A stretch of DNA of 21,340 bases from assembly GCA_019057475.1 (NCBI GenBank), contig DXJO01000037.1, forward strand, positions 1-21,340. Direction: 5' to 3'. The DNA comes from Candidatus Thorarchaeota archaeon. GTDB lineage: Archaea; Asgardarchaeota; Thorarchaeia; Thorarchaeales; Thorarchaeaceae. This document shows, in pieces, positions 1-19,825 of this stretch. Numbering within the stretch: the stretch's first letter is position 1; every line of letters begins with the position of its first letter. The position numbers were made by a program, and so were the translations under genes. Below the pieces are notes generated by a model that was not told the DNA's origin, made no database searches, and was given only the letters and a program-made list of their open reading frames with translations.

Positions 1-2
1 TC

Positions 3-686
3 ATTTGCAAAGAGATAGGTTGTCCTGAGTTGATTGAACCTATTCCAAGACCCAAAGAAGTTTCAGCTATTAGACGACGTGACCTCTTGACTCCTAATGA
101 AATTGCTGCATTGTTGAGAGCCTGCAAAGACTTGTATGAACGTGCAATGATAGAATTACTAGTTGAGTCAGGCTGTAGGATTGGAGAGGTGCTTAGTCTT
201 AATGTCGAAGACATAACCACAGATGATAACTTCCTCTACGTGGATGTCATTGGTAAGACAGGCACTCGTCAAATTCCATTACTCAAAGATAATCTACCAA
301 GTTTTCAGTATCACTTGGTAATCCGTCTAAGTGGTCCAGTGTTCAACAGTAGTCGATATCCTGATAGACCAATCTCATATCGTGTTGTGCTTGATAAAAT
401 CGTGGACATCTTTCAGAGGGCTGGAGTCAAGAAACGTGCTAGAACAATCCACATCTTCAGGCATACCAAGGCAACGTATCTCATTGAACTAGGAGTTCCT
501 GAGAGTATCATCAAGAAGTTCATGGGATGGTCTGAAACTTCAGATACAATAACGAAGTACACCCATCTCACCAACAAGTCAGTCAAGGACTTCTTCAGCA
601 GGCTGTATGGTATTGATGAAGAACCTATTGAACCACTCTTCCCAGATGAAGAACGTAAGAGGATCAAGGAGATGTTCAAAGACTAG
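3..686 (+). CDS. Tyrosine recombinase/integrase (Xer/phage-integrase family), 5'-truncated by the window edge
   Basis: Catalytic motifs in order: GCRIGE (R), IGKTG (K), HIFRH (HxxR), MGW (H/W), KYTH (Y). The frame is open from position 3 (ICKEIGCPEL...), so the true start lies upstream. Confidence 0.95.
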   Translation: MCKEIGCPELIEPIPRPKEVSAIRRRDLLTPNEIAALLRACKDLYERAMIELLVESGCRIGEVLSLNVEDITTDDNFLYVDVIGKTGTRQIPLLKDNLPSFQYHLVIRLSGPVFNSSRYPDRPISYRVVLDKIVDIFQRAGVKKRARTIHIFRHTKATYLIELGVPESIIKKFMGWSETSDTITKYTHLTNKSVKDFFSRLYGIDEEPIEPLFPDEERKRIKEMFKD

Positions 687-10029: not shown

Positions 10030-10428
10030 TCATCGTTCAACATTCTTCTCCCAATAATATTCGACTGACTTGCTATCGTCCGCCCCTAGATATTCTAGCA
10101 TCGATCTAAAAAGCGGTTCAAGGTGGCTAGGGTCATCGAGTGCAAAAACGAAGACCGGTCCCTTCGACTTCTTCAGGATCGTGCTGGTCCTGTACTTGGC
10201 TATCGCACTCATGTGCCATGGCCACGCAGCATCAAGAAAGTGTTCTCTTATTTCGATTCTCTTTGCCCTTTGTCGTCCGCGAATTTTATATCGGAGAAAA
10301 CAGTAACGCTTGGTGTAGGGCCTCATATCATTGAAGGGGGTTTTGTGGCTCTTACCTTTGTCGATTACTTTTCTTAACCTTTCAAATTCTTCACGAGAAA
10401 GCACGATAGGCATGAAATCACAGTCCAA
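10030..10428 (-). CDS. Hypothetical protein
   Basis: 132-aa ORF, the longest in the interval. The start may be MPIVLS. Confidence 0.6.
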   Translation of the reverse strand: MDCDFMPIVLSREEFERLRKVIDKGKSHKTPFNDMRPYTKRYCFLRYKIRGRQRAKRIEIREHFLDAAWPWHMSAIAKYRTSTILKKSKGPVFVFALDDPSHLEPLFRSMLEYLGADDSKSVEYYWEKNVER

Positions 10429-11877: not shown

Positions 11878-12012
11878 CAAGAACTCATTGATAGATTCTT
11901 GAAGACTAAGGAAAAAGCACGATATCTGAGTATTGCCGATTGGGTGAGAGATTGCCTTCGCCACTGCCTAGACGCGATTGAGATGAAAGAGAGAGAAGAG
12001 AGAAAGAAGTGA
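11878..12012 (+). pseudogene. Ribbon-helix-helix (CopG-like) gene remnant
   Basis: QELIDRFLKTKEKARYLSIADWVRDCLRHCLDAIEMKEREERKK* fits the RHH helices (Y.S..(D/E).VR..LR). It is preceded by an in-frame TAG and the N-terminal strand is missing. Confidence 0.55.
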
Positions 12013-12083
12013 GTGACCGAACACCCTTCACGACACCTCGTGTTCTGCCTGTGCAAGATAGGGTGTTAAGTTCGTGTTAGATG

Positions 12084-13177
12084 ACTCACTCATGTTATCC
12101 TCTTCTGATGCTGTTAGATTGAGATGTTAGGTGGTTCTGAATTCTCTTCTTCACAAAAAGACCTAACAAGTTATCACAAGTTCACAGAAAAGGTCTGATA
12201 TATCAGGCGGCTTTAGGCATTCTTTGATAGAAGCGTAGCTGTCTCGCTAATTAATACGTTCGTATTATTTAGACAATGTTCTTCACAAAATTCCATATGC
12301 CGTACAATCTTCCGAGCGGTGTCATAATCCTTTCTGCACCACGCTTCGACTGCTGGAATATTGCATTTTAGTCCCTCTATCTTATCATAGAATTATATAC
12401 ACTCTTGACAAAAACATATACACTCTTGACAGTGTCAACATCTGAATCCTAACAACCTAACAGAAACATATACACTCTTGACAGTGTCAACATCTGAATC
12501 TTCACAAGTTGACAGAAAAACTTCACAAGTTTTCACAGACTCACAGAAAATCCTCACAAGTTCACAGAAAAGGTCTGATATATCAGGCGGCTTTAGGCAT
12601 TCTTTGATAGAAGCATATACACTCTTGACAAAAACATATACACTCTTGATGGAAAAGGTCTGATATCTCAAAGGCATAATAAAGATGGGCCATTTGGTCG
12701 TCTATCCACTATATAGGGTGTCCTGCAAGTACGTTTGCAAGTGTGTTTGCAAGTTGGCCTATATAGCGCTCCTGCAACCCTCTTTGTAAGGGTGTTTGTA
12801 AGGGTGTTTGTAAGGTGGGTCTTTCGTACCCTTCAATCACCTGAGCATCGCATGAGAATCGAGGTCTAACGGGATGTGAGGGGGTGAGGATGGGGGTACG
12901 AAAGCCATACTAGACCTCATCTACCCTCATTCTATGAGGGGGTAGCCATAGCCCAGTGTGTTAGTATCTTACATGACTAATAACCTAACACATAAGCATC
13001 AATGCATCCTAAGAAAGACAGACGTGTGTAAGATGCCAGCTTGCAAGCATTTTCATAGTTGTCTGCAATGTAATTACCACTCATCACGCAAGAACGAAAG
13101 GTGTAAACAACCTAACATTTTACAGATGTTAGTCCTCCTGTTCTAGTGTAGATAGGACTTCCCACACTGCCTTCTCA
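12084..13177. repeat. Copy A of a repeat-rich non-coding element
   Basis: Collinear with 14913-15595: CACTCATGTTA, CTGTTAGATTGAG, GTTAGGTGGTTCTGA, two CTATATAG boxes with 12-bp repeats, hairpin 12821-12831/12894-12904, and a 47-bp terminus at 13131-13177. Confidence 0.9.
12174..12650. repeat. Iteron-like cluster
   Basis: Perfect 61-bp direct repeat (12174-12234, 12554-12614), five ATATACACTCTTGA (12395, 12416, 12468, 12615, 12636) and two TTGACAGTGTCAA inverted repeats. Confidence 0.9.
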
Positions 13178-13494
13178 TATACAGTCAGGGCAAACGTGTT
13201 AGTTTTACACGTTAGTTCTGGCTGAATGATAGTGTTACTATCAGCCATGAACTAACCCGTTCCGCAGTTTCTTGCTGCTCTGGCGATAACGCTGCATCAG
13301 AGCATCTATAATGGTTTCCATTTGAACATGAATGCCCCCCACCATGCACTAAAGGGATTCTGAACATTGTAGGTGCAATTGAACAGGTATCCCATAGGAC
13401 CCCAACCGACAGAACCACGAAGGCGAGCAACTAGCCTCTTGAACGTGCAGAACAATCTGAACCAGAGTTTCATTTGATCTGATTCCCGTCTGAA

Positions 13495-13562
13495 GCCCCG
13501 CCTTTGGTAGAAGCGCAGCGCATTAATATTGTCATTCGTGGTTATCACCCACAGTCTGACAA
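13495..13562 (-). pseudogene. GNAT acetyltransferase fragment
   Basis: VRLWVITTNDNINALRFYQRRGF is a typical GNAT C-terminal motif. The flanking in-frame sequence is not GNAT-like. Confidence 0.7.
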
Positions 13563-13737
13563 ATAGGCATTGACTAGGCACGAAACCTTGAGTGTGCCTG
13601 TATCGCTGAATAACGCAGATACATCGAGTTGATTGGTGTATTCCGAGAGTTACTAATGAGTGAATTATCACTGGTTACCTCAATGAGGTCTATTGTTCCG
13701 AACTTGTGGGCATTCCTCTTCTGACCATCTATTTTTC

Positions 13738-14604
13738 TTATTTTCGCTCTTCACCATAAAAACATCCTCTCCAATAAAGAACAAACCAAACAAAAAGAAT
13801 AGGTCCAATTGCAATTAACGAACTCTGTAATAGTGTAGGTTCTTGATGAATTGCCAAATCGAAAAGTCCTAGATGAATCAAGTTATTAAAGGAGTGCATA
13901 AGGACGCATGGCCAAACACTATTGGATTCAAGATATAACCAACCAAAGATAAAACCCGTTAATACAAAGATAAACAGAGCCATTAATGCACCAATAGGCT
14001 CTAATTGAGTGCCATAATATAGATTTGGAAAAATTAGTAATGGGAGATGCCAGACTGACATGATTATTCCAGTTAATAATAGTGCATGCCACTTTTCAAG
14101 TGGTCTTAATTTTTGAAGTAAGTAACTCCTCCAGCCAAATTCCTCACCAATAAATATAATAATTCCCCCAAAAAGATTGATTGGAACACGATATAGACCC
14201 ATGATTATTAAATTCCAATCTATTTCAATAAAATCCAAAGACACAAGTATAACATCCTGTATCCCATTCCAAAAAAAAGGTAATAAAATAGCACACAACC
14301 AATATTGCTTAGGAATATTCTTAATTCCAAGGTGAGCATCTTTGAAGCCCTCCCTAGCAACAATGGTTCGAGTGATTAATGCTGCTAAAAGTGGACTATA
14401 AGGTCCCATTATCCCAAGAATATTAATCCATAAAGCCTCCTCCTTAAAAAATACTGACCCAAGAAAGGGAATCCACAATAAAGCAAAAGACAGTATAACA
14501 AAAAAAATAATTTGATTTACTGGAATAAAAACAGATTTATCATCAATCCCATGATTTTCTTCAGTAGAAATGTCATTTATTGCCATTTTTTTCTCATACC
14601 TCAT
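13738..14604 (-). CDS. CPBP family (CAAX/Abi) intramembrane metalloprotease
   Basis: GEEFGWRSYL, WHLP and HSFNN motifs, multiple TMs, markedly AT-rich. Confidence 0.93.
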   Translation of the reverse strand: MRYEKKMAINDISTEENHGIDDKSVFIPVNQIIFFVILSFALLWIPFLGSVFFKEEALWINILGIMGPYSPLLAALITRTIVAREGFKDAHLGIKNIPKQYWLCAILLPFFWNGIQDVILVSLDFIEIDWNLIIMGLYRVPINLFGGIIIFIGEEFGWRSYLLQKLRPLEKWHALLLTGIIMSVWHLPLLIFPNLYYGTQLEPIGALMALFIFVLTGFIFGWLYLESNSVWPCVLMHSFNNLIHLGLFDLAIHQEPTLLQSSLIAIGPILFVWFVLYWRGCFYGEERK

Positions 14605-14705
14605 TTAATATCTTGATCTGGTTGTTTTTCTACTTAAATCGACCGCACTGCGTGTTATTCTTAAGAAAACTCATTTTTAATGCAAAGTTTTTCTAATAAA
14701 AAACA

Positions 14706-14762
14706 TTCAAACACTAGTGTTTAGAGGTGTTCAAACACTTGTGACGAAATCCAAGTGTTGAA
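14706..14762. promoter_or_regulatory. Operator-like palindromes upstream of CPBP
   Basis: Perfect AAACACTAGTGTTT (14709-14722), TTCAAACACT twice, and an AACACTTG/CAAGTGTT inverted pair. Confidence 0.4.
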
Positions 14763-14912
14763 GGTCAATTAAAGCGCATGAACATCACGTAAGGGAGGGT
14801 AAGATGGCAGGGTGCGTCACCTCTAGGGATACTTGAACTGATATAACCGATGTGCGCTACTAACAATACTAACAGACAGTCTTCCAGTTTCATAACAACA
14901 CTCATAGAAACC

Positions 14913-15595
14913 CACTCATGTTAGGTTTTCCTGAGTCAAACAGTTCACTCATGTTAGACTCTTCACTCATGTTAGGTTTTCCTGAGTCAAATAATTCACT
15001 CGTGTTAGACTCTCCTGACACTGTTAGATTGAGTTTTATTGAGAAGTTAGGTGGTTCTGACTCTATTTCTTTACAGAAGAGATCTGAAATCTTCTAGATG
15101 TAGTAAGATAAGATATTATGTCGTCTGGTCCCTATATAGCGCTGTGGAAAGTACTAAAGAAAGTACTAAAGAAAGTACTTTTGAAAGCTGGCCTATATAG
15201 CGCTACGGCAAGTACTTTTGCAAGTTGACCTTTCGTACCCTTCGATCACCTGAGCATCGCATGAGAATCGAGCTCTAACGGGATGTGAGGGGGGATGGTG
15301 GGGGTACGAAAGCTATACTAGACCTCATCTGCCCTCATTCTATAAGAACACACCCATAGCAGCGTATCAATACTTTACATTATTTACAACTTTACACAAT
15401 AGGCACCAATGAGTCTTAAAAGAAACAGACGTGTGTGAAACGCCAGCTTGCAAATGGCTTGCAAGCACTTTCGTAGTCTATCTGCAGCGCATTCGCCACT
15501 CGTCACGCGAGCGCGAAAAGGTGTAAGCAATCCGATGTTTTACATGTCAGTCCTCCTGTTCTAGTGTGGATAGGACTTCCCACACTGCCTTCTCA
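14913..15595. repeat. Copy B of the repeat-rich non-coding element
   Basis: 51-bp tandem duplication (14913-15014), CTATATAG at 15132 and 15193, hairpin 15230-15240/15302-15312, and terminus 15549-15595 (46/47 identical to copy A). Confidence 0.9.
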
Positions 15596-15755
15596 AGGGC
15601 ACGATCATTGAAATGCTGTTTCCAAATCCTAAGTATCTATGGTTCCCCATGAAGTTGGCTGCGCCAAACAATAGCGATATACGGGTTCAATCACTCCCTT
15701 ATGCAGCGCTTCACAACATGTTCCTAATGAAGTACTTCATGGCGGGTCATTCTCT

Positions 15756-17393
15756 ATGAAGAAACAAGATTTGTCCAGAAAACGCCTTCTCACGATGGGG
15801 CTCATTGCTTCTGTAAGTGCCATTTGGATTCTGCTAAGGACTGGCAGCAGACCTTCTAGGATTGCTTACCCGTGTCAACAGGCTGCAGTCTTGAACATCG
15901 ACTCATTTCGCTTGGCTCTAACAGCTTCAATACTAAGCAGCCGGAAAACCATCATGACAATACCCGGCAGACTCAGCCATCCTGCTGCAATTGGTCTATT
16001 GCTGGTGAGTTGCTTGTTCCTTACTTCTGACTACGCCGCAGCTCCCATCGAATACTTCACCATGTCGGTTGACAACAACATCTCAGTGCCATTACTCCTT
16101 GAATCACAGAGTGCTGTTAGTCAGGCTGATTCATCAGACCTGTTCTTTGTGCAGAATGCCTCGGGCATCGAAGGGAACATGGATTCCGGGGTTTCCGCGT
16201 TGTTCGAGCTGATGGAATCCAAGGGGCTGTACTTCTTCAAGACGACCGGTCACCCCTCGGGACTGATAGGCAGCGATGACGTAGTGCTGATCAAAATAAA
16301 CTGTCAGTGGCCCTACAGAGGAGGCACAAACACAGACCTAGTCAAGAGCTTGATCAACAAGACTGTCAACCATCCTGACGGATTCACAGGGGAGATAGTA
16401 ATTGCAGACAACGGACAGGGATACGGCAATTTGGACTGGTGGGACGCCAACTCCTTCGGCCATGACCAAACCATGGAAGATGTTGCATGCATGTTCCCCT
16501 CATTCAATATTTCAACAGTACTATGGGACACGCTGCGGGATAGCGCGGTTCTCGACTACGAGTGGGGGGACTTCACAGACGGCTACGTCATCAACTCGAC
16601 TAGGAATCTGATCACGGATGTAATGGTGTCCTATCCAAAGTTCAAAACCGAGTATGGTACATACATCAGCTTCAAGAACGGGATATGGAGCAACACAACA
16701 GGATTCAATGCCGATAGACTGAAGATCATCAATCTGCCAGTCTTGAAGTCTCATGGTACCTACGGAGTAACGGGTTGCATCAAGCACTACATGGGTGTCG
16801 TGAAGGGAGAGGTTGTTAAGGGTATCACTCCCCACGAGCACTTCGCAATAGCATTGGGTGGAATGGGAACTGTGATGGCAGAAACTAGGTTTCCGACGCT
16901 CAACATTCTTGACGCTATCTGGATCAACGCCAATCCGGTGGAGAGCGGGCGATACTGTGGGCCAGAGTCCCTCCATTCAACTGCCAGCTTCACAGACATC
17001 ATTGGGGCGAGTGAAGACCCCGTTGCCCTAGACTACTGGGCGTCCAAGAACATTCTCATGCCCGCTGCGGAATACCAGAACCACACTGAATATTCATCAT
17101 TGGACCCGGATTATGAGCCGATAAGTCCCACCGGGCCCGGGGGCAGACGGTTCATGGTCGAGTCATTTCACAACTACCTGGAAAGGTCAATGAACGCGTT
17201 GGAGAGTGCTGGGCTCCAAGTCACCATGGACTTGGATGAGATGAACATCAATGTCACTAGCCTCTCTGGGACCACGTTTCCAACAGGCGTTACAGACCAG
17301 CTGTACATCCAAATGGTTGTCGGTTCGCTGGTTTCAGTAGCTCTAATAATCATTGCAGTTGTCCTCGTAAAACGAAGGGCCGCGAGCAGGTAA
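15756..17393 (+). CDS. DUF362 domain protein, membrane-anchored
   Basis: VLIKIN, INLPVLKSHGTYGVTGCIKHYMG, LNILDAIW and ASEDPVALD motifs, with a C-terminal TM plus basic tail. Confidence 0.88.
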   Translation: MKKQDLSRKRLLTMGLIASVSAIWILLRTGSRPSRIAYPCQQAAVLNIDSFRLALTASILSSRKTIMTIPGRLSHPAAIGLLLVSCLFLTSDYAAAPIEYFTMSVDNNISVPLLLESQSAVSQADSSDLFFVQNASGIEGNMDSGVSALFELMESKGLYFFKTTGHPSGLIGSDDVVLIKINCQWPYRGGTNTDLVKSLINKTVNHPDGFTGEIVIADNGQGYGNLDWWDANSFGHDQTMEDVACMFPSFNISTVLWDTLRDSAVLDYEWGDFTDGYVINSTRNLITDVMVSYPKFKTEYGTYISFKNGIWSNTTGFNADRLKIINLPVLKSHGTYGVTGCIKHYMGVVKGEVVKGITPHEHFAIALGGMGTVMAETRFPTLNILDAIWINANPVESGRYCGPESLHSTASFTDIIGASEDPVALDYWASKNILMPAAEYQNHTEYSSLDPDYEPISPTGPGGRRFMVESFHNYLERSMNALESAGLQVTMDLDEMNINVTSLSGTTFPTGVTDQLYIQMVVGSLVSVALIIIAVVLVKRRAASR

Positions 17394-17472
17394 GAACACT
17401 CACGTTTCAAGCACGTGATGTTGCGCATGAATGGACACATATGCAAGTCAGTATGCAAAATGGAAGAAGCAA

Positions 17473-17680
17473 CATGGTTGAGCTTGTCTTCGGTAACATG
17501 ACCACCATGGACCTTGTCATGGCGGGGCTCACCGGTATCTTGTCATTGGCAATTCTCGCAATGGTCTTCAAGATGTCATTGAAAGGCACACCCAAGTGGC
17601 AAGCAAGAAAGATAGTCCATGTTTCCCTAGGCACGTTCATCGCACTCACAGTACCGGCCTACTCGAAAGAGATAGTTTGA
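17473..17680 (+). pseudogene. N-terminal fragment of a phytol/dolichol-kinase-like (cytidylyltransferase-family) membrane protein
   Basis: TM helix then ARKIVHVSLG (RKxxH motif). It stops after ~70 aa, far short of family length. Confidence 0.65.
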
Positions 17681-17990: not shown

Positions 17991-19825
17991 TGGCAACGGG
18001 CAATATTTCCTCAAGATGGAAAGTTGCTGATTCTTGGGAGTTTCAGAACGAAATCAATTAGCTAGCAGGCGAACTTAAGCGCGCTCCAAGTCGGGAGGAC
18101 ATTTTGGAACACTACATAGACGAAATCGTTGGAGAGTATTCCGACGCGCACGAGGCTGACCTGACAAAAGCAATAACCAATATTCCGGCCTCGCAACCAC
18201 CAACAATGACCTCTGAGGACACGGATATTCCACGAGAGGTCTTGAAGGCGATTAATCACCAAATCAACTATTTGAAAGAAGAATACACGTTCTGGTCCAG
18301 AGGAAGAAACTCAGCACTTTGGATTTATGACGAGGAAACCTGAGTCTATGTCGAAAACGGAGAAGCCGTTGTGGATAAGTATCTGGCCAAGAGGCTGGCG
18401 GATGATGCAAACTACCGCTCGGTGATCGGCAACGAGGTGATAAATTATCTGAAACGTGCATCCTTCGACGGCGAAGAACTTGGTGGTCCGCCTCATATCT
18501 TGGTTGTCAGGAACGGAAGAATCAATCTTGAGGATGGTTCTTTCGTTGAAGGATTCGACCCTGAGGAATTGCAAATTGTCAGGGTGGATGTGGAGTTTGA
18601 TGAAGAAGTAACCTGTTCGAAGATAGAGAAATTCCTATCTGAGGTCCTAGAATCCGAGGACAAAATCAAAGCCATGGTTGAATTGATAGGCTACTGTCTG
18701 TTCAAAGGATGGCCTTATGATATTATTGTCATCATGGTCGGAGGCGGAGCAAATGGAAAGACCGTCTGGATTGAGGCCATAACCGAGTTTCTCGGAAAAG
18801 AGAATATTGAAGCCATGACCATGCAGACACTTGCCAAAGACAAGTTCGCGCTGGCAAACCTCCACGGAAAACTAGCGAATCTGGCAGGTGAGATTCCCCA
18901 CCAACCGATAGCCTACACCTCACGGCTAAAAGACTTGACAGGCGGTGGACGGGTCTTTGCTCAGAAGAAATACCAGACAGGCTTCCATTTTGAGAATTGG
19001 GCGAAACTGTTTTTCTCGTCAAACAACACGCCTGCAATCTATGACGATTCCCGCGGGATGTGGAGAAGGATGTTTGTTCTCAATTTTCCCAACACCTTCG
19101 GAATAGATGACCGGCCTGCGATCCCTCGTGACAGACTGGTTCAGTCATTGACCACCGAGGACGAATTTAGCGGGCTTCTCAATCTGGCGATTGCAGGATG
19201 GCTCAGACTCAGAGAATCCGGCAAACTCACGGGCACAAAGACTCCCGAGGAAGAGAGGGTCGCCTACCTCAGAGTTTCCAATCCGTTGCAGTACTTAGCA
19301 GAATTTTTCCTCGAATTTGACAGAGGAGTTCCGCCGTTGAATAAGCCGGCTCTCTATGAGGTGTACCTGAGATGGTGCGCCCATGAGGGACAACCACCGA
19401 AAGGCGAGCGGAGATTCTTCAGAGCAATTAGGGCGGTGGCGACTTACATAACCGAGAAACACCCAACTGTGGGGGGTCAGAAGGTTCCTAGAATCTTCGA
19501 GAGCGTCCGAATCAAGACCGAGGATAACCAGCTGATTGTGCTAAAGAAATGGAACTCTATAACCCCTAGGAATCCGGAGCAAAAGAACGGTTCCGAGGGA
19601 GGAGGCTTCTTGTACTGTTGTGGAAGAATTCACCTCCTTCCAAAGCTGGTTGTACGGTGTGAAGCTCCAGGGGCGCCCCCCTGTCGACTACCACCTATTG
19701 AGGTTAGGGGACTCCTTGGACTGTATGATGCGAACCCCGTAAGTTCCAGAGTAGTGGCAGGGAACCACGATTCATGTGTAGCGGGCCGTGGCCTAGAATC
19801 CCATTGCCAAGGGTATGAGAATTAG
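17990..19825 (+). pseudogene. D5/P4-type SF3 helicase (phage/plasmid primase C-terminal domain) with two in-frame stops
   Basis: Walker A GGGANGKT, LHGKLANLAGE, LKDLTGG, KLFFSSNNTP, GMWRRM and a wHTH tail. ATG 17990 (RBS GGAGGTG), ORF 18104 and ORF 18371 share one frame broken by TAG 18059-18061 and TGA 18341-18343. The last ~80 aa look like run-on. Confidence 0.85.

What the first reader, a model, noticed from the sequence alone, without database searches (positions are those of the whole stretch)
12084..17680. Repeated non-coding element with a sharp 47-bp terminus followed by unrelated, truncated cargo: possible gene-capture platform
Seen: copies A and B are diverged internally but 46/47 identical at the right end (AGTCCTCCTGTTCTAGTGTRGATAGGACTTCCCACACTGCCTTCTCA, containing an AGTGT/ACACT hairpin), and homology then stops abruptly. 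Copy A is followed by a GNAT scrap and an AT-rich CPBP gene. Copy B is followed by DUF362 and a truncated kinase-like gene of higher GC. Inference: the terminus is a recombination (att-like) or nicking site, and the array arose by tandem integration or one-ended capture of host DNA.
Basis: partly seen in the sequence, partly recalled or inferred. Interest (0 to 1): 0.72.

Follow-up and report, generated by a model that had tools for sequence, protein, structure and literature searches.

The report
Conserved control module, not capture site
Two old, diverged copies of a gene-free control region of an archaeal mobile element both end in a strongly conserved block of about 63 bases, but nothing links that block to a DNA-cutting or gene-capturing enzyme, so it is best read as the edge of a replication or expression control module in a patchwork element.

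Summary
The 47-mer occurs exactly twice in the 3.34-Mb genome (13131-13177 and 15549-15595, 46/47 identical), and similarity then collapses.

The true edge lies 16 nt further on, at 13193. A metagenome contig (L007) carries two more copies. Three lineages (A/M2, M1, B) keep 47-mer + TATRCAGTCAGGGCAA and diverge after AGGGCA(A); B has a 9-nt deletion inside the extension.

The repeated unit is modular: short-repeat (iteron-like) arrays, a CTATATAG promoter-like box, an 84-nt stem-loop (94% identical between A and B), a poorly conserved middle (67%), and the 63-nt block (94-98%).

The block has no fold beyond shuffles, no ORF, no other copy or target in the genome, and no match in 399 other genomes of the phylum. 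It has no adjacent recombinase or HUH gene.

Sharp ends of similarity also occur elsewhere in the family: copy C on contig C20 stops at 13012, and A versus M2 stops at 13220.

Chromosome-derived gene scraps do lie downstream of both copies.

My reading is a conserved control or origin module of mosaic Asgard integrative elements that encode D5-type helicases. A site-specific capture platform is not supported, though it is not excluded.

Other notes of this scan covered parts of this same stretch; none reported it on other DNA.

The parts
12057..12160 (+). Left arm shared by copies A and B, rich in TGTTAG words
   Evidence: 12076-12158 matches 14986-15078 at 71-79%. TGTTAG clusters here.
12161..12700 (+). 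A-specific iteron cluster: ATATACACTCTTGACA repeats, TTCACAAGTTCACAGAAAA words and a 64-nt duplication
   Evidence: Families D1, D4, D10 and D13. Related arrays occur on C4:7100-7531 and C20.
12709..12766 (+). Two CTATATAG boxes of copy A (12709-12716 and 12759-12766), followed by 12-nt-period TTTGNAAG repeats. Promoter-like.
   Evidence: The same upstream module (GGTCTGAAATCT...GTCGTCT.GTCACTATATA) precedes unrelated sequence on C24:3397-3538. A similar box lies 29 nt before the start of the TBP gene in L007.
12821..12904 (+). Conserved 84-nt stem-loop of copy A
   Evidence: 79/84 identical to B. Alignment fold z is -4.4 on the + strand and -3.2 on the - strand. Relatives with covarying stems lie on C27.
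12905..13130 (+). Poorly conserved middle of copy A
   Evidence: 140/209 identical to B over 12936-13130. No conserved fold (z -0.5) and no conserved ORF. Copy C (C20) stops matching at 13012.
13131..13193 (+).
13194..13220 (+). A-type tail with two GTTAG words, shared only with M2 of L007
   Evidence: A 13127-13220 matches L007 2533-2440 at 96.8% (sequences shown).
13219..13635 (-). Scrap of a chromosomal segment containing a GNAT C-terminal remnant
   Evidence: 94% identical to C51:73426-73011, which lies between SDR-type and thioredoxin-reductase-type genes. GNAT hit E 0.067.
13678..13731 (-). 54-nt fragment of the 3' end of a multi-copy acidic-protein gene
   Evidence: 89-91% identical to C20:79-132, C22:1223-1276 and C42:362368-362421.
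13738..14604 (-). Intact AT-rich CPBP/Rce1-like membrane protease gene, convergent with copy A
   Evidence: Pfam PF02517, 7.9e-18. GC 0.333.
14780..15229 (+). Upstream part of copy B: degenerate second hairpin motif, CACTCATGTTAG iterons, and CTATATAG boxes at 15132-15139 and 15193-15200
15230..15312 (+). Conserved stem-loop of copy B
15313..15548 (+). Middle of copy B
   Evidence: B versus M1 is 182/207 identical.
15549..15601 (+). Distal block of copy B: 47-mer, a 9-nt deletion, then AGGGCA
15756..17393 (+). DUF362-domain protein, co-directional with copy B
   Evidence: Pfam PF04015, 4.6e-18. Homologues at 52-56% identity in 3 of 24 genomes of the family.
17392..17667 (+). Scrap holding the 5' part of a membrane-protein gene
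   Evidence: 91.7% identical to C3:115682-115407. Translation shown.
18371..19825 (+). D5_N + SF3-helicase protein, short at the N-terminus (484 aa)
   Evidence: Pfam D5_N and DUF5906. PHROG primase families match only their C-terminal halves. The relatives on C51 and C24 are 684 and 510 aa.

Best explanation
The repeated element is the non-coding control region of a small family of integrative, plasmid-like elements of an Asgard-type archaeon that replicate with D5/SF3-type helicases.

Each unit is modular. In order it has arrays of short repeats (iterons) that differ between copies, a CTATATAG promoter-like box, an 84-nt stem-loop, a loosely constrained spacer, and a 63-nt block conserved in primary sequence.

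I infer three steps:
1. The iterons and the stem-loop act as initiator-binding and origin signals. This parallels the roughly 100-nt stem-loop origin of plasmid pRN1 and the iteron origin of P4.
2. The box drives a + strand transcript through the stem-loop.
3. The distal block is a sequence-specific signal at the far edge of the module. I favour a protein-binding DNA site; a transcript end is the alternative.

The contig carries an A-type and a B-type allele because it is a mosaic or cointegrate of related elements.

The sharp terminus is the point where purifying selection stops. Beyond it the DNA has been replaced repeatedly by homologous and illegitimate recombination among co-resident elements and the chromosome, which leaves accessory genes and gene scraps.

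What is shown: the anatomy, the conservation profile, the mosaicism and the origin of the scraps. What is inferred: the origin, promoter and binding functions.
For: Conservation is bimodal across four copies from two samples: stem-loop 94%, middle 67%, block 94-98%. This argues for selection rather than local gene conversion.

Only the stem-loop has a fold beyond column shuffles, and it is stronger on the + strand. Relatives on C27 keep the stem through different sequences and share a GAGAWTC loop motif.

The promoter-like module recurs upstream of unrelated sequence on C24 and resembles the box 29 nt before the TBP gene in L007. Its TATA core resembles boxes upstream of this genome's tRNA genes.

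There is some linkage to D5/SF3 helicase genes. Copy B lies 2.8 kb upstream of one, co-directional. The C24 module lies 2.6 kb upstream of another.

In pRN1, a repressor, a primase-SF3 helicase and a displaceable stem-loop of about 100 nt form the replicon (PMC4234260).

Mosaicism is pervasive. Ends of similarity fall at 13012, 13193 and 13220, and the left parts of the units are also shuffled.

Scraps downstream are 92-94% identical to chromosomal loci. The D5 gene is truncated.
Against: No experiment or transcript data support any function.

Only five copies exist, so covariation within this element cannot be tested.

The iterons differ between A and B, so one initiator may not serve both.

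Copy C (C20) and L007 show no helicase gene on the short contigs available.

The box lacks the purine-rich stretch seen upstream of the tRNA TATA boxes.

Three lineages diverge at exactly the same nucleotide, which a recombination site would also explain.

Confidence: 0.5

Rival explanations
1. The unit from the CTATATAG box to the block is a gene for a non-coding RNA of about 400-450 nt, or a long leader. The block is its conserved 3' end or processing signal. Downstream genes vary because the RNA gene is an independent module.
For: There is a promoter-like box 30-60 nt upstream of the stem-loop. The stem-loop is more stable on the + strand, with G-U pairs. Genes downstream are co-directional for B, M1 and C. 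The A-type tail has a T4 run.
Against: The middle and the block have no conserved structure (z -0.5 and -0.3). There is no Rfam match. There is no consistent oligo-T terminator after the block in B or M1. Copy C keeps the promoter and stem-loop but lacks the block.
Confidence: 0.2
2. The block is a site-specific recombination (att-like) site. Cassettes are inserted or exchanged downstream of a promoter-plus-stem-loop platform, much as in an integron.
For: Three lineages diverge at the same nucleotide after AGGGCA(A). The block is 94-98% conserved. Downstream content differs in every lineage. The two sites are direct on C17 and inverted on L007. Tyrosine integrases are present in these elements.
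Against: There are only two sites in the genome and no chromosomal target. None was found in 399 other genomes of the phylum. The integrase is 12.4 kb away, and none was found on C20 or L007. The block has no inverted core sites with a 6-8 bp spacer and no significant hairpin. Cargo orientation is mixed, and there is no attC-like repeat after the cargo. Copy C breaks 165 nt before the block. The host scraps do not abut the block.
Confidence: 0.12
3. The block is the origin end of a rolling-circle or one-ended transposon (IS91/ISCR or Helitron style) that picks up flanking DNA.
For: One end is sharp, the DNA beyond it varies, and host gene scraps lie downstream.
Against: No HUH, Rep or Y2 transposase was found in the window with Pfam, PHROGs or NCBIfam. 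The terminal hairpin is not significant. There are only two copies in the genome.
Confidence: 0.03
4. The pattern is an assembly or binning artefact, or comes from recent gene conversion between the two copies.
For: The genome is a 56-contig metagenome assembly with branching contig ends.
Against: The copies are only 80% identical, so they are not a collapsed repeat. The same block occurs twice on an independent metagenome contig with 44-45/47 identity.
Confidence: 0.03

Closest known systems
pRN1-family plasmid replicon of Sulfolobus (repressor Orf56, primase-SF3 helicase ORF904, stem-loop origin of about 100 nt; PMC4234260)
   Same: Both are small archaeal elements with an SF3/D5-type replication protein. 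Both have a conserved non-coding stem-loop of 84-100 nt, flanked by conserved non-coding sequence and separable from the rep gene.
   Different: There is no sequence similarity. Iteron arrays are present here, whereas pRN1 is stated to lack them. The stem-loop here lies upstream of the helicase gene rather than downstream. The elements here are integrated and decayed. No function has been tested.
Iteron origins served by primase-helicases: satellite phage P4 (ori plus a second cis region, crr; recalled from memory, with alpha-protein binding to origin repeats cited in PMC4234260) and RSF1010 (iterons plus ssi stem-loops)
   Same: Arrays of short repeats lie beside a D5_N/SF3-type helicase gene. 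Two separated cis regions sit on one element. RSF1010 also has stem-loops next to its iterons.
   Different: The iteron words differ between copies A and B, so a shared initiator is doubtful. No binding data exist. The host is archaeal.
Integron platform (intI, attI, Pc promoter, attC cassettes)
   Same: A promoter-bearing non-coding platform with a sharp edge is followed by variable genes.
   Different: There is no adjacent integrase, no attC-like site after the cargo, and no folded recombination site. Cargo orientation is mixed, and there are only two sites.
ISCR/IS91-type one-ended rolling-circle capture
   Same: One defined end is followed by variable captured DNA.
   Different: There is no HUH transposase and no terminal hairpin beyond chance.
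Mosaic mobile elements with conserved backbone modules and variable accessory-gene hotspots
   Same: Conserved blocks border regions that hold different accessory or defence-like genes (STAND-TIR on C20, CPBP, DUF362, TBP plus EndoVII-like).
   Different: No conserved right-hand flank has been defined, and there are too few copies to call this a hotspot.

Membership tests
Integron-like capture platform | A tyrosine recombinase gene adjacent to the primary site | tested here: not met
   The only integrase in the window is at 3-686, which is 12.4 kb from copy A. None was found among the tested ORFs of C20 or on L007.
Integron-like capture platform | Each cassette ends in a repeated, foldable attC-type site, and cassettes are co-oriented | tested here: not met
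   No further copy or diverged copy of the block was found. The block does not fold beyond shuffles. The CPBP gene and the scrap after copy A are convergent with it.
Integrase att site of an integrated element | The same core at both element ends and, in empty sites, in the host target | tested here: not met
   Both copies lie inside the contig, 2.4 kb apart. No third copy or short target beyond shuffled controls exists in the genome. None was found in 399 genomes of the phylum.
Integrase att site of an integrated element | A fixed crossover point shared by all copies | tested here: inconclusive
   Three lineages diverge after AGGGCA(A). However, copy C breaks at 13012 and A versus M2 breaks at 13220. 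Only four junctions are known.
IS91/ISCR/Helitron-type rolling-circle element | An HUH/Rep transposase and a terminal hairpin at the origin end | tested here: not met
   No such family was found by Pfam, PHROGs or NCBIfam. The hairpin is not significant.
Stem-loop or iteron replication origin of SF3-helicase replicons (pRN1/P4 type) | A conserved stem-loop whose pairing is maintained | tested here: met
   Alignment fold z is -4.4. Relatives on C27 keep 11-13 bp stems with different sequences.
Stem-loop or iteron replication origin of SF3-helicase replicons (pRN1/P4 type) | Linkage to the replication protein gene | tested here: inconclusive
   Copy B and the C24 module lie 2.6-2.8 kb upstream of D5-like genes. 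No helicase was seen on C20 or L007, which are short contigs.
Stem-loop or iteron replication origin of SF3-helicase replicons (pRN1/P4 type) | Required in cis for replication and bound by the initiator | not testable with these tools
   This needs replication and binding assays.
Any curated RNA family (Rfam 15) | A covariance-model match | tested here: not met
   There were no gathering-score hits in the window, and only chance-level hits at E up to 5 over 11900-15750.

The most novel reading that the evidence does not exclude
The 63-nt block is a true exchange site. A promoter-plus-stem-loop platform of Asgard mobile elements would swap downstream accessory genes at one fixed nucleotide, catalysed by the elements' tyrosine integrases or an unknown enzyme. 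That would be an archaeal analogue of an integron-like expression platform. The direct (C17) and inverted (L007) pairs of sites would then be products of such exchange.
Probability: 0.08. Interest if true: 0.8.

Novelty: new member of a known kind. Interest (0 to 1): 0.33.

Why it matters
Mobile elements of Asgard archaea are barely characterised, and none of their cis-acting signals is known. This module gives concrete candidates for an origin, a promoter and a binding site that could be tested with the elements' own D5-type helicase, integrase or TBP paralogue. Such signals could also help in building vectors for these organisms. The report also shows that a sharp end of similarity in a mosaic element is not in itself evidence for a recombination site.

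Tried and rejected
More copies:
- BLAST of the element found nothing in 60 relatives.
- A covariance model of the stem-loop found nothing in 86 genomes of the family.
- A 31-nt core with up to 3 mismatches found nothing in 399 other genomes of the phylum.
- Exact patterns found nothing in viral contigs.
- The species-level genome collection gave one hit, a 21-22 nt chance match in an Acidobacteriota assembly.
- The plasmid and phage collections gave nothing.
- Only one metagenome contig, L007, was found.
- A D5-protein search of viral contigs found no relatives.

Readings tested and rejected:
- A small ORF ending inside the 47-mer is not conserved; the frames are broken in B and M1.
- Pseudoknot or hairpin readings of the block are not better than shuffles, and M1 and M2 changes do not compensate.
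- A 7-nt complementarity between the stem-loop apex (AUGAGAA) and the block (UUCUCAU) is about what chance gives.
- An antisense target or attB elsewhere in the genome was not found beyond shuffled controls.
- tRNA-derived att: there are no tRNA genes in the window.
- DUF362 and the C3-like membrane gene are not neighbours in relatives, so they were not captured as one chromosomal block.


Full report
SETTING

The window is a complete 21,340-bp contig (C17) of a 3.34-Mb, 56-contig assembly. Earlier notes of this scan call the organism a Thorarchaeota (Asgard) archaeon. I did not verify the name. TBP, L13e, TackOD1 and DUF7347 hits fit an archaeon.

The contig is a mobile-element region. It carries:
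- a tyrosine integrase at 3-686, which continues from contig C45
- a TIR protein
- two HNH genes
- two CPBP genes
- an HTH regulator
- a D5_N/SF3-helicase gene at 18371-19825

Its left end shares a 127-nt assembly overlap with C45. A second contig, C1, with a 94% identical integrase, shares part of that same C45 end, so the assembly branches here between two alternative elements.

THE OBSERVATION

The 47-mer occurs at 13131-13177 and 15549-15595, 46/47 identical, with none expected by chance. It occurs nowhere else in the genome. Copies A and B align at 79.5% over 12821-13177 and 15230-15595.

Conservation is strongly bimodal:
- 84-nt stem-loop: 79/84
- middle: 140/209
- 47-mer: 46/47
- next 16 nt: 4/16

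Given 67% background identity, 46/47 has P = 1.6e-7.

MORE COPIES

A third, partial copy (C) lies on C20:8944-8471 on the minus strand. It is 94% identical to A up to A-coordinate 13012 and then unrelated, so it lacks the 47-mer.

One metagenome contig, L007 (2,533 bp), holds two more copies:
- M1, at 62-569, is 89.5% identical to B.
- M2 is at the right contig end, inverted. It matches A 13127-13220 at 96.8%.

Nothing else was found in 60 relatives by BLAST, in 86 genomes of the family with a covariance model, in 399 other genomes of the phylum with a 31-nt core and 3 mismatches, or in the viral, plasmid and phage collections. The species-level genome collection gave only a 21-22 nt chance match.

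WHERE THE EDGE REALLY IS

A, M1 and M2 continue after the 47-mer with TATRCAGTCAGGGCAA. B has a 9-nt deletion and then AGGGCA. The three lineages (A/M2, M1, B) become unrelated right after AGGGCA(A), which is window position 13193 or 15601. A and M2 share 27 more bases and part at 13220.

So the conserved block is 63 nt and its edge is shared. But sharp ends of similarity also exist at 13012 and 13220, and at several places on the left side of the units.

ANATOMY OF THE UNIT

From left to right:

1. Arrays of short repeats. These differ between copies: ATATACACTCTTGACA and TTCACAAGTTCACAGAAAA in A, CACTCATGTTAG in B, GTTACAG in L007. There is a shared enrichment of TGTTAG.

2. A conserved module ending in CTATATAG, followed by 12-nt-period repeats. 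The same module precedes unrelated sequence on C24. A similar box lies 29 nt before the start of the TBP gene in L007. Its core resembles the TATA boxes upstream of this genome's tRNA genes, although the purine-rich upstream part is missing.

3. The 84-nt stem-loop. It is the only part with a fold beyond column shuffles: z -4.4 on the + strand and -3.2 on the - strand. Three further hairpins on C27 keep 11-13 bp stems with different sequences and share a GAGAWTC loop motif. They sit beside an integrase.

4. The middle. It has no conserved fold (z -0.5) and no conserved ORF.

5. The 63-nt block. It has no fold beyond shuffles (z -1.0 to +0.05), no ORF, no diverged copy (nhmmer) and no complementary or identical target in the genome beyond shuffled controls.

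There is no Rfam match.

WHAT FOLLOWS THE BLOCK

Copy A:
- a 27-nt tail
- a 417-nt scrap, 94% identical to C51:73011-73426, holding a GNAT C-terminal remnant that lies between chromosomal-type genes there
- a 54-nt fragment of the 3' end of a multi-copy acidic-protein gene
- an intact AT-rich CPBP gene on the opposite strand

Copy B:
- a co-directional DUF362 gene with GC near the genome mean of 48% and homologues at 52-56% identity in 3 of 24 genomes of the family
- a scrap 92% identical to the 5' part of a membrane-protein gene on C3
- a D5-type helicase that is short at its N-terminus: 484 aa against 684 and 510 aa for its relatives

M1 is followed by a TBP paralogue and an EndoVII-like gene, both co-directional. 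M2 faces them from the other side.

Copy C is followed by an 89-aa ORF and a STAND-TIR protein.

INTERPRETATION

The block is under selection; conservation holds across two samples. It has none of the features of a recombination or nicking site that I could test:
- no adjacent recombinase or HUH protein
- no second site or target
- no site-like symmetry
- no co-oriented cassettes

The host scraps show that foreign DNA does get incorporated, but they do not abut the block.

The family as a whole is a patchwork in which every module has its own boundaries.

The closest documented parallel is the pRN1 replicon. There, a repressor, a primase-SF3 helicase and a displaceable stem-loop of about 100 nt are what replication needs, and conserved non-coding sequence flanks the stem-loop (PMC4234260). 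Iteron origins served by primase-helicases (P4, RSF1010) are the second parallel.

I therefore read the unit as an origin and expression control module. The block is its constrained distal signal. The two copies are alleles brought together in a mosaic or cointegrate element. Confidence is 0.5.

Rivals:
- an RNA-gene or leader reading (0.2)
- rolling-circle capture (0.03)
- an artefact (0.03)

LIMITS

Only five copies exist. No transcript or read data could be used.

Noticed in passing
G000 contig C27:356-425, 648-737 and 761-853 (locus L029); window 12821-12904 and 15230-15312: A family of hairpins with 11-13 bp stems that differ in sequence but stay complementary. Loops are 50-70 nt and share GAGAWTC. 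Three of them lie in tandem beside an integrase gene (C27:1665-2975).
   Followed up: partly
window 13678-13731; C20:3-152, C22:1148-1291, C42:362292-362441, C25 and C28 ends: The last 150 nt or so of an acidic-protein gene (231 aa on C42) is repeated at several contig ends next to mobile-element DNA. A 54-nt fragment of it lies between copies A and B. It is a candidate integration target of co-resident elements.
   Followed up: partly
L007:880-2133: The metagenome relative carries its own TBP paralogue (Pfam TBP, 3.4e-60) and an EndoVII-like gene between two inward-facing copies of the element. A box, GGTACGTCTATATTCAC, lies 29 nt before the TBP start and resembles the CTATATAG module.
   Followed up: partly
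window 1-686; C45:63199-63518; C1:9430-10105: The integrase gene starts on C45, next to a ribosomal protein L13e gene, and continues into either C17 or C1 (94% identical). Two alternative elements therefore occupy the same chromosomal junction in the sampled population.
   Followed up: partly
window 10239-10252 and C45:63112-63125: A 14-nt direct repeat, AGTGTTCTCTTATT, occurs only at these two places. One copy lies between the L13e gene and the integrase start; the other lies near a GC shift at about 10.4 kb. It may be an att core, but about 0.6 such matches are expected by chance.
   Followed up: partly
window 14790-14832; C20:8902-8944; C51:8660-8750; C27:356-440: A second conserved motif lies upstream of the iterons: a hairpin whose 3' arm runs into TCTAAGGATAC. 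It is intact on C51 and C27 and degenerate in copy B.
   Followed up: no
window 18371-19825: The D5_N/SF3-helicase protein is 484 aa and matches only the C-terminal halves of primase families. Its relatives on C51 and C24 are 684 and 510 aa. The 1-kb stretch upstream of it is full of stop codons in all frames.
   Followed up: partly
It has an intact 102-aa relative on C4, but neither gives a Pfam hit.
   Followed up: partly
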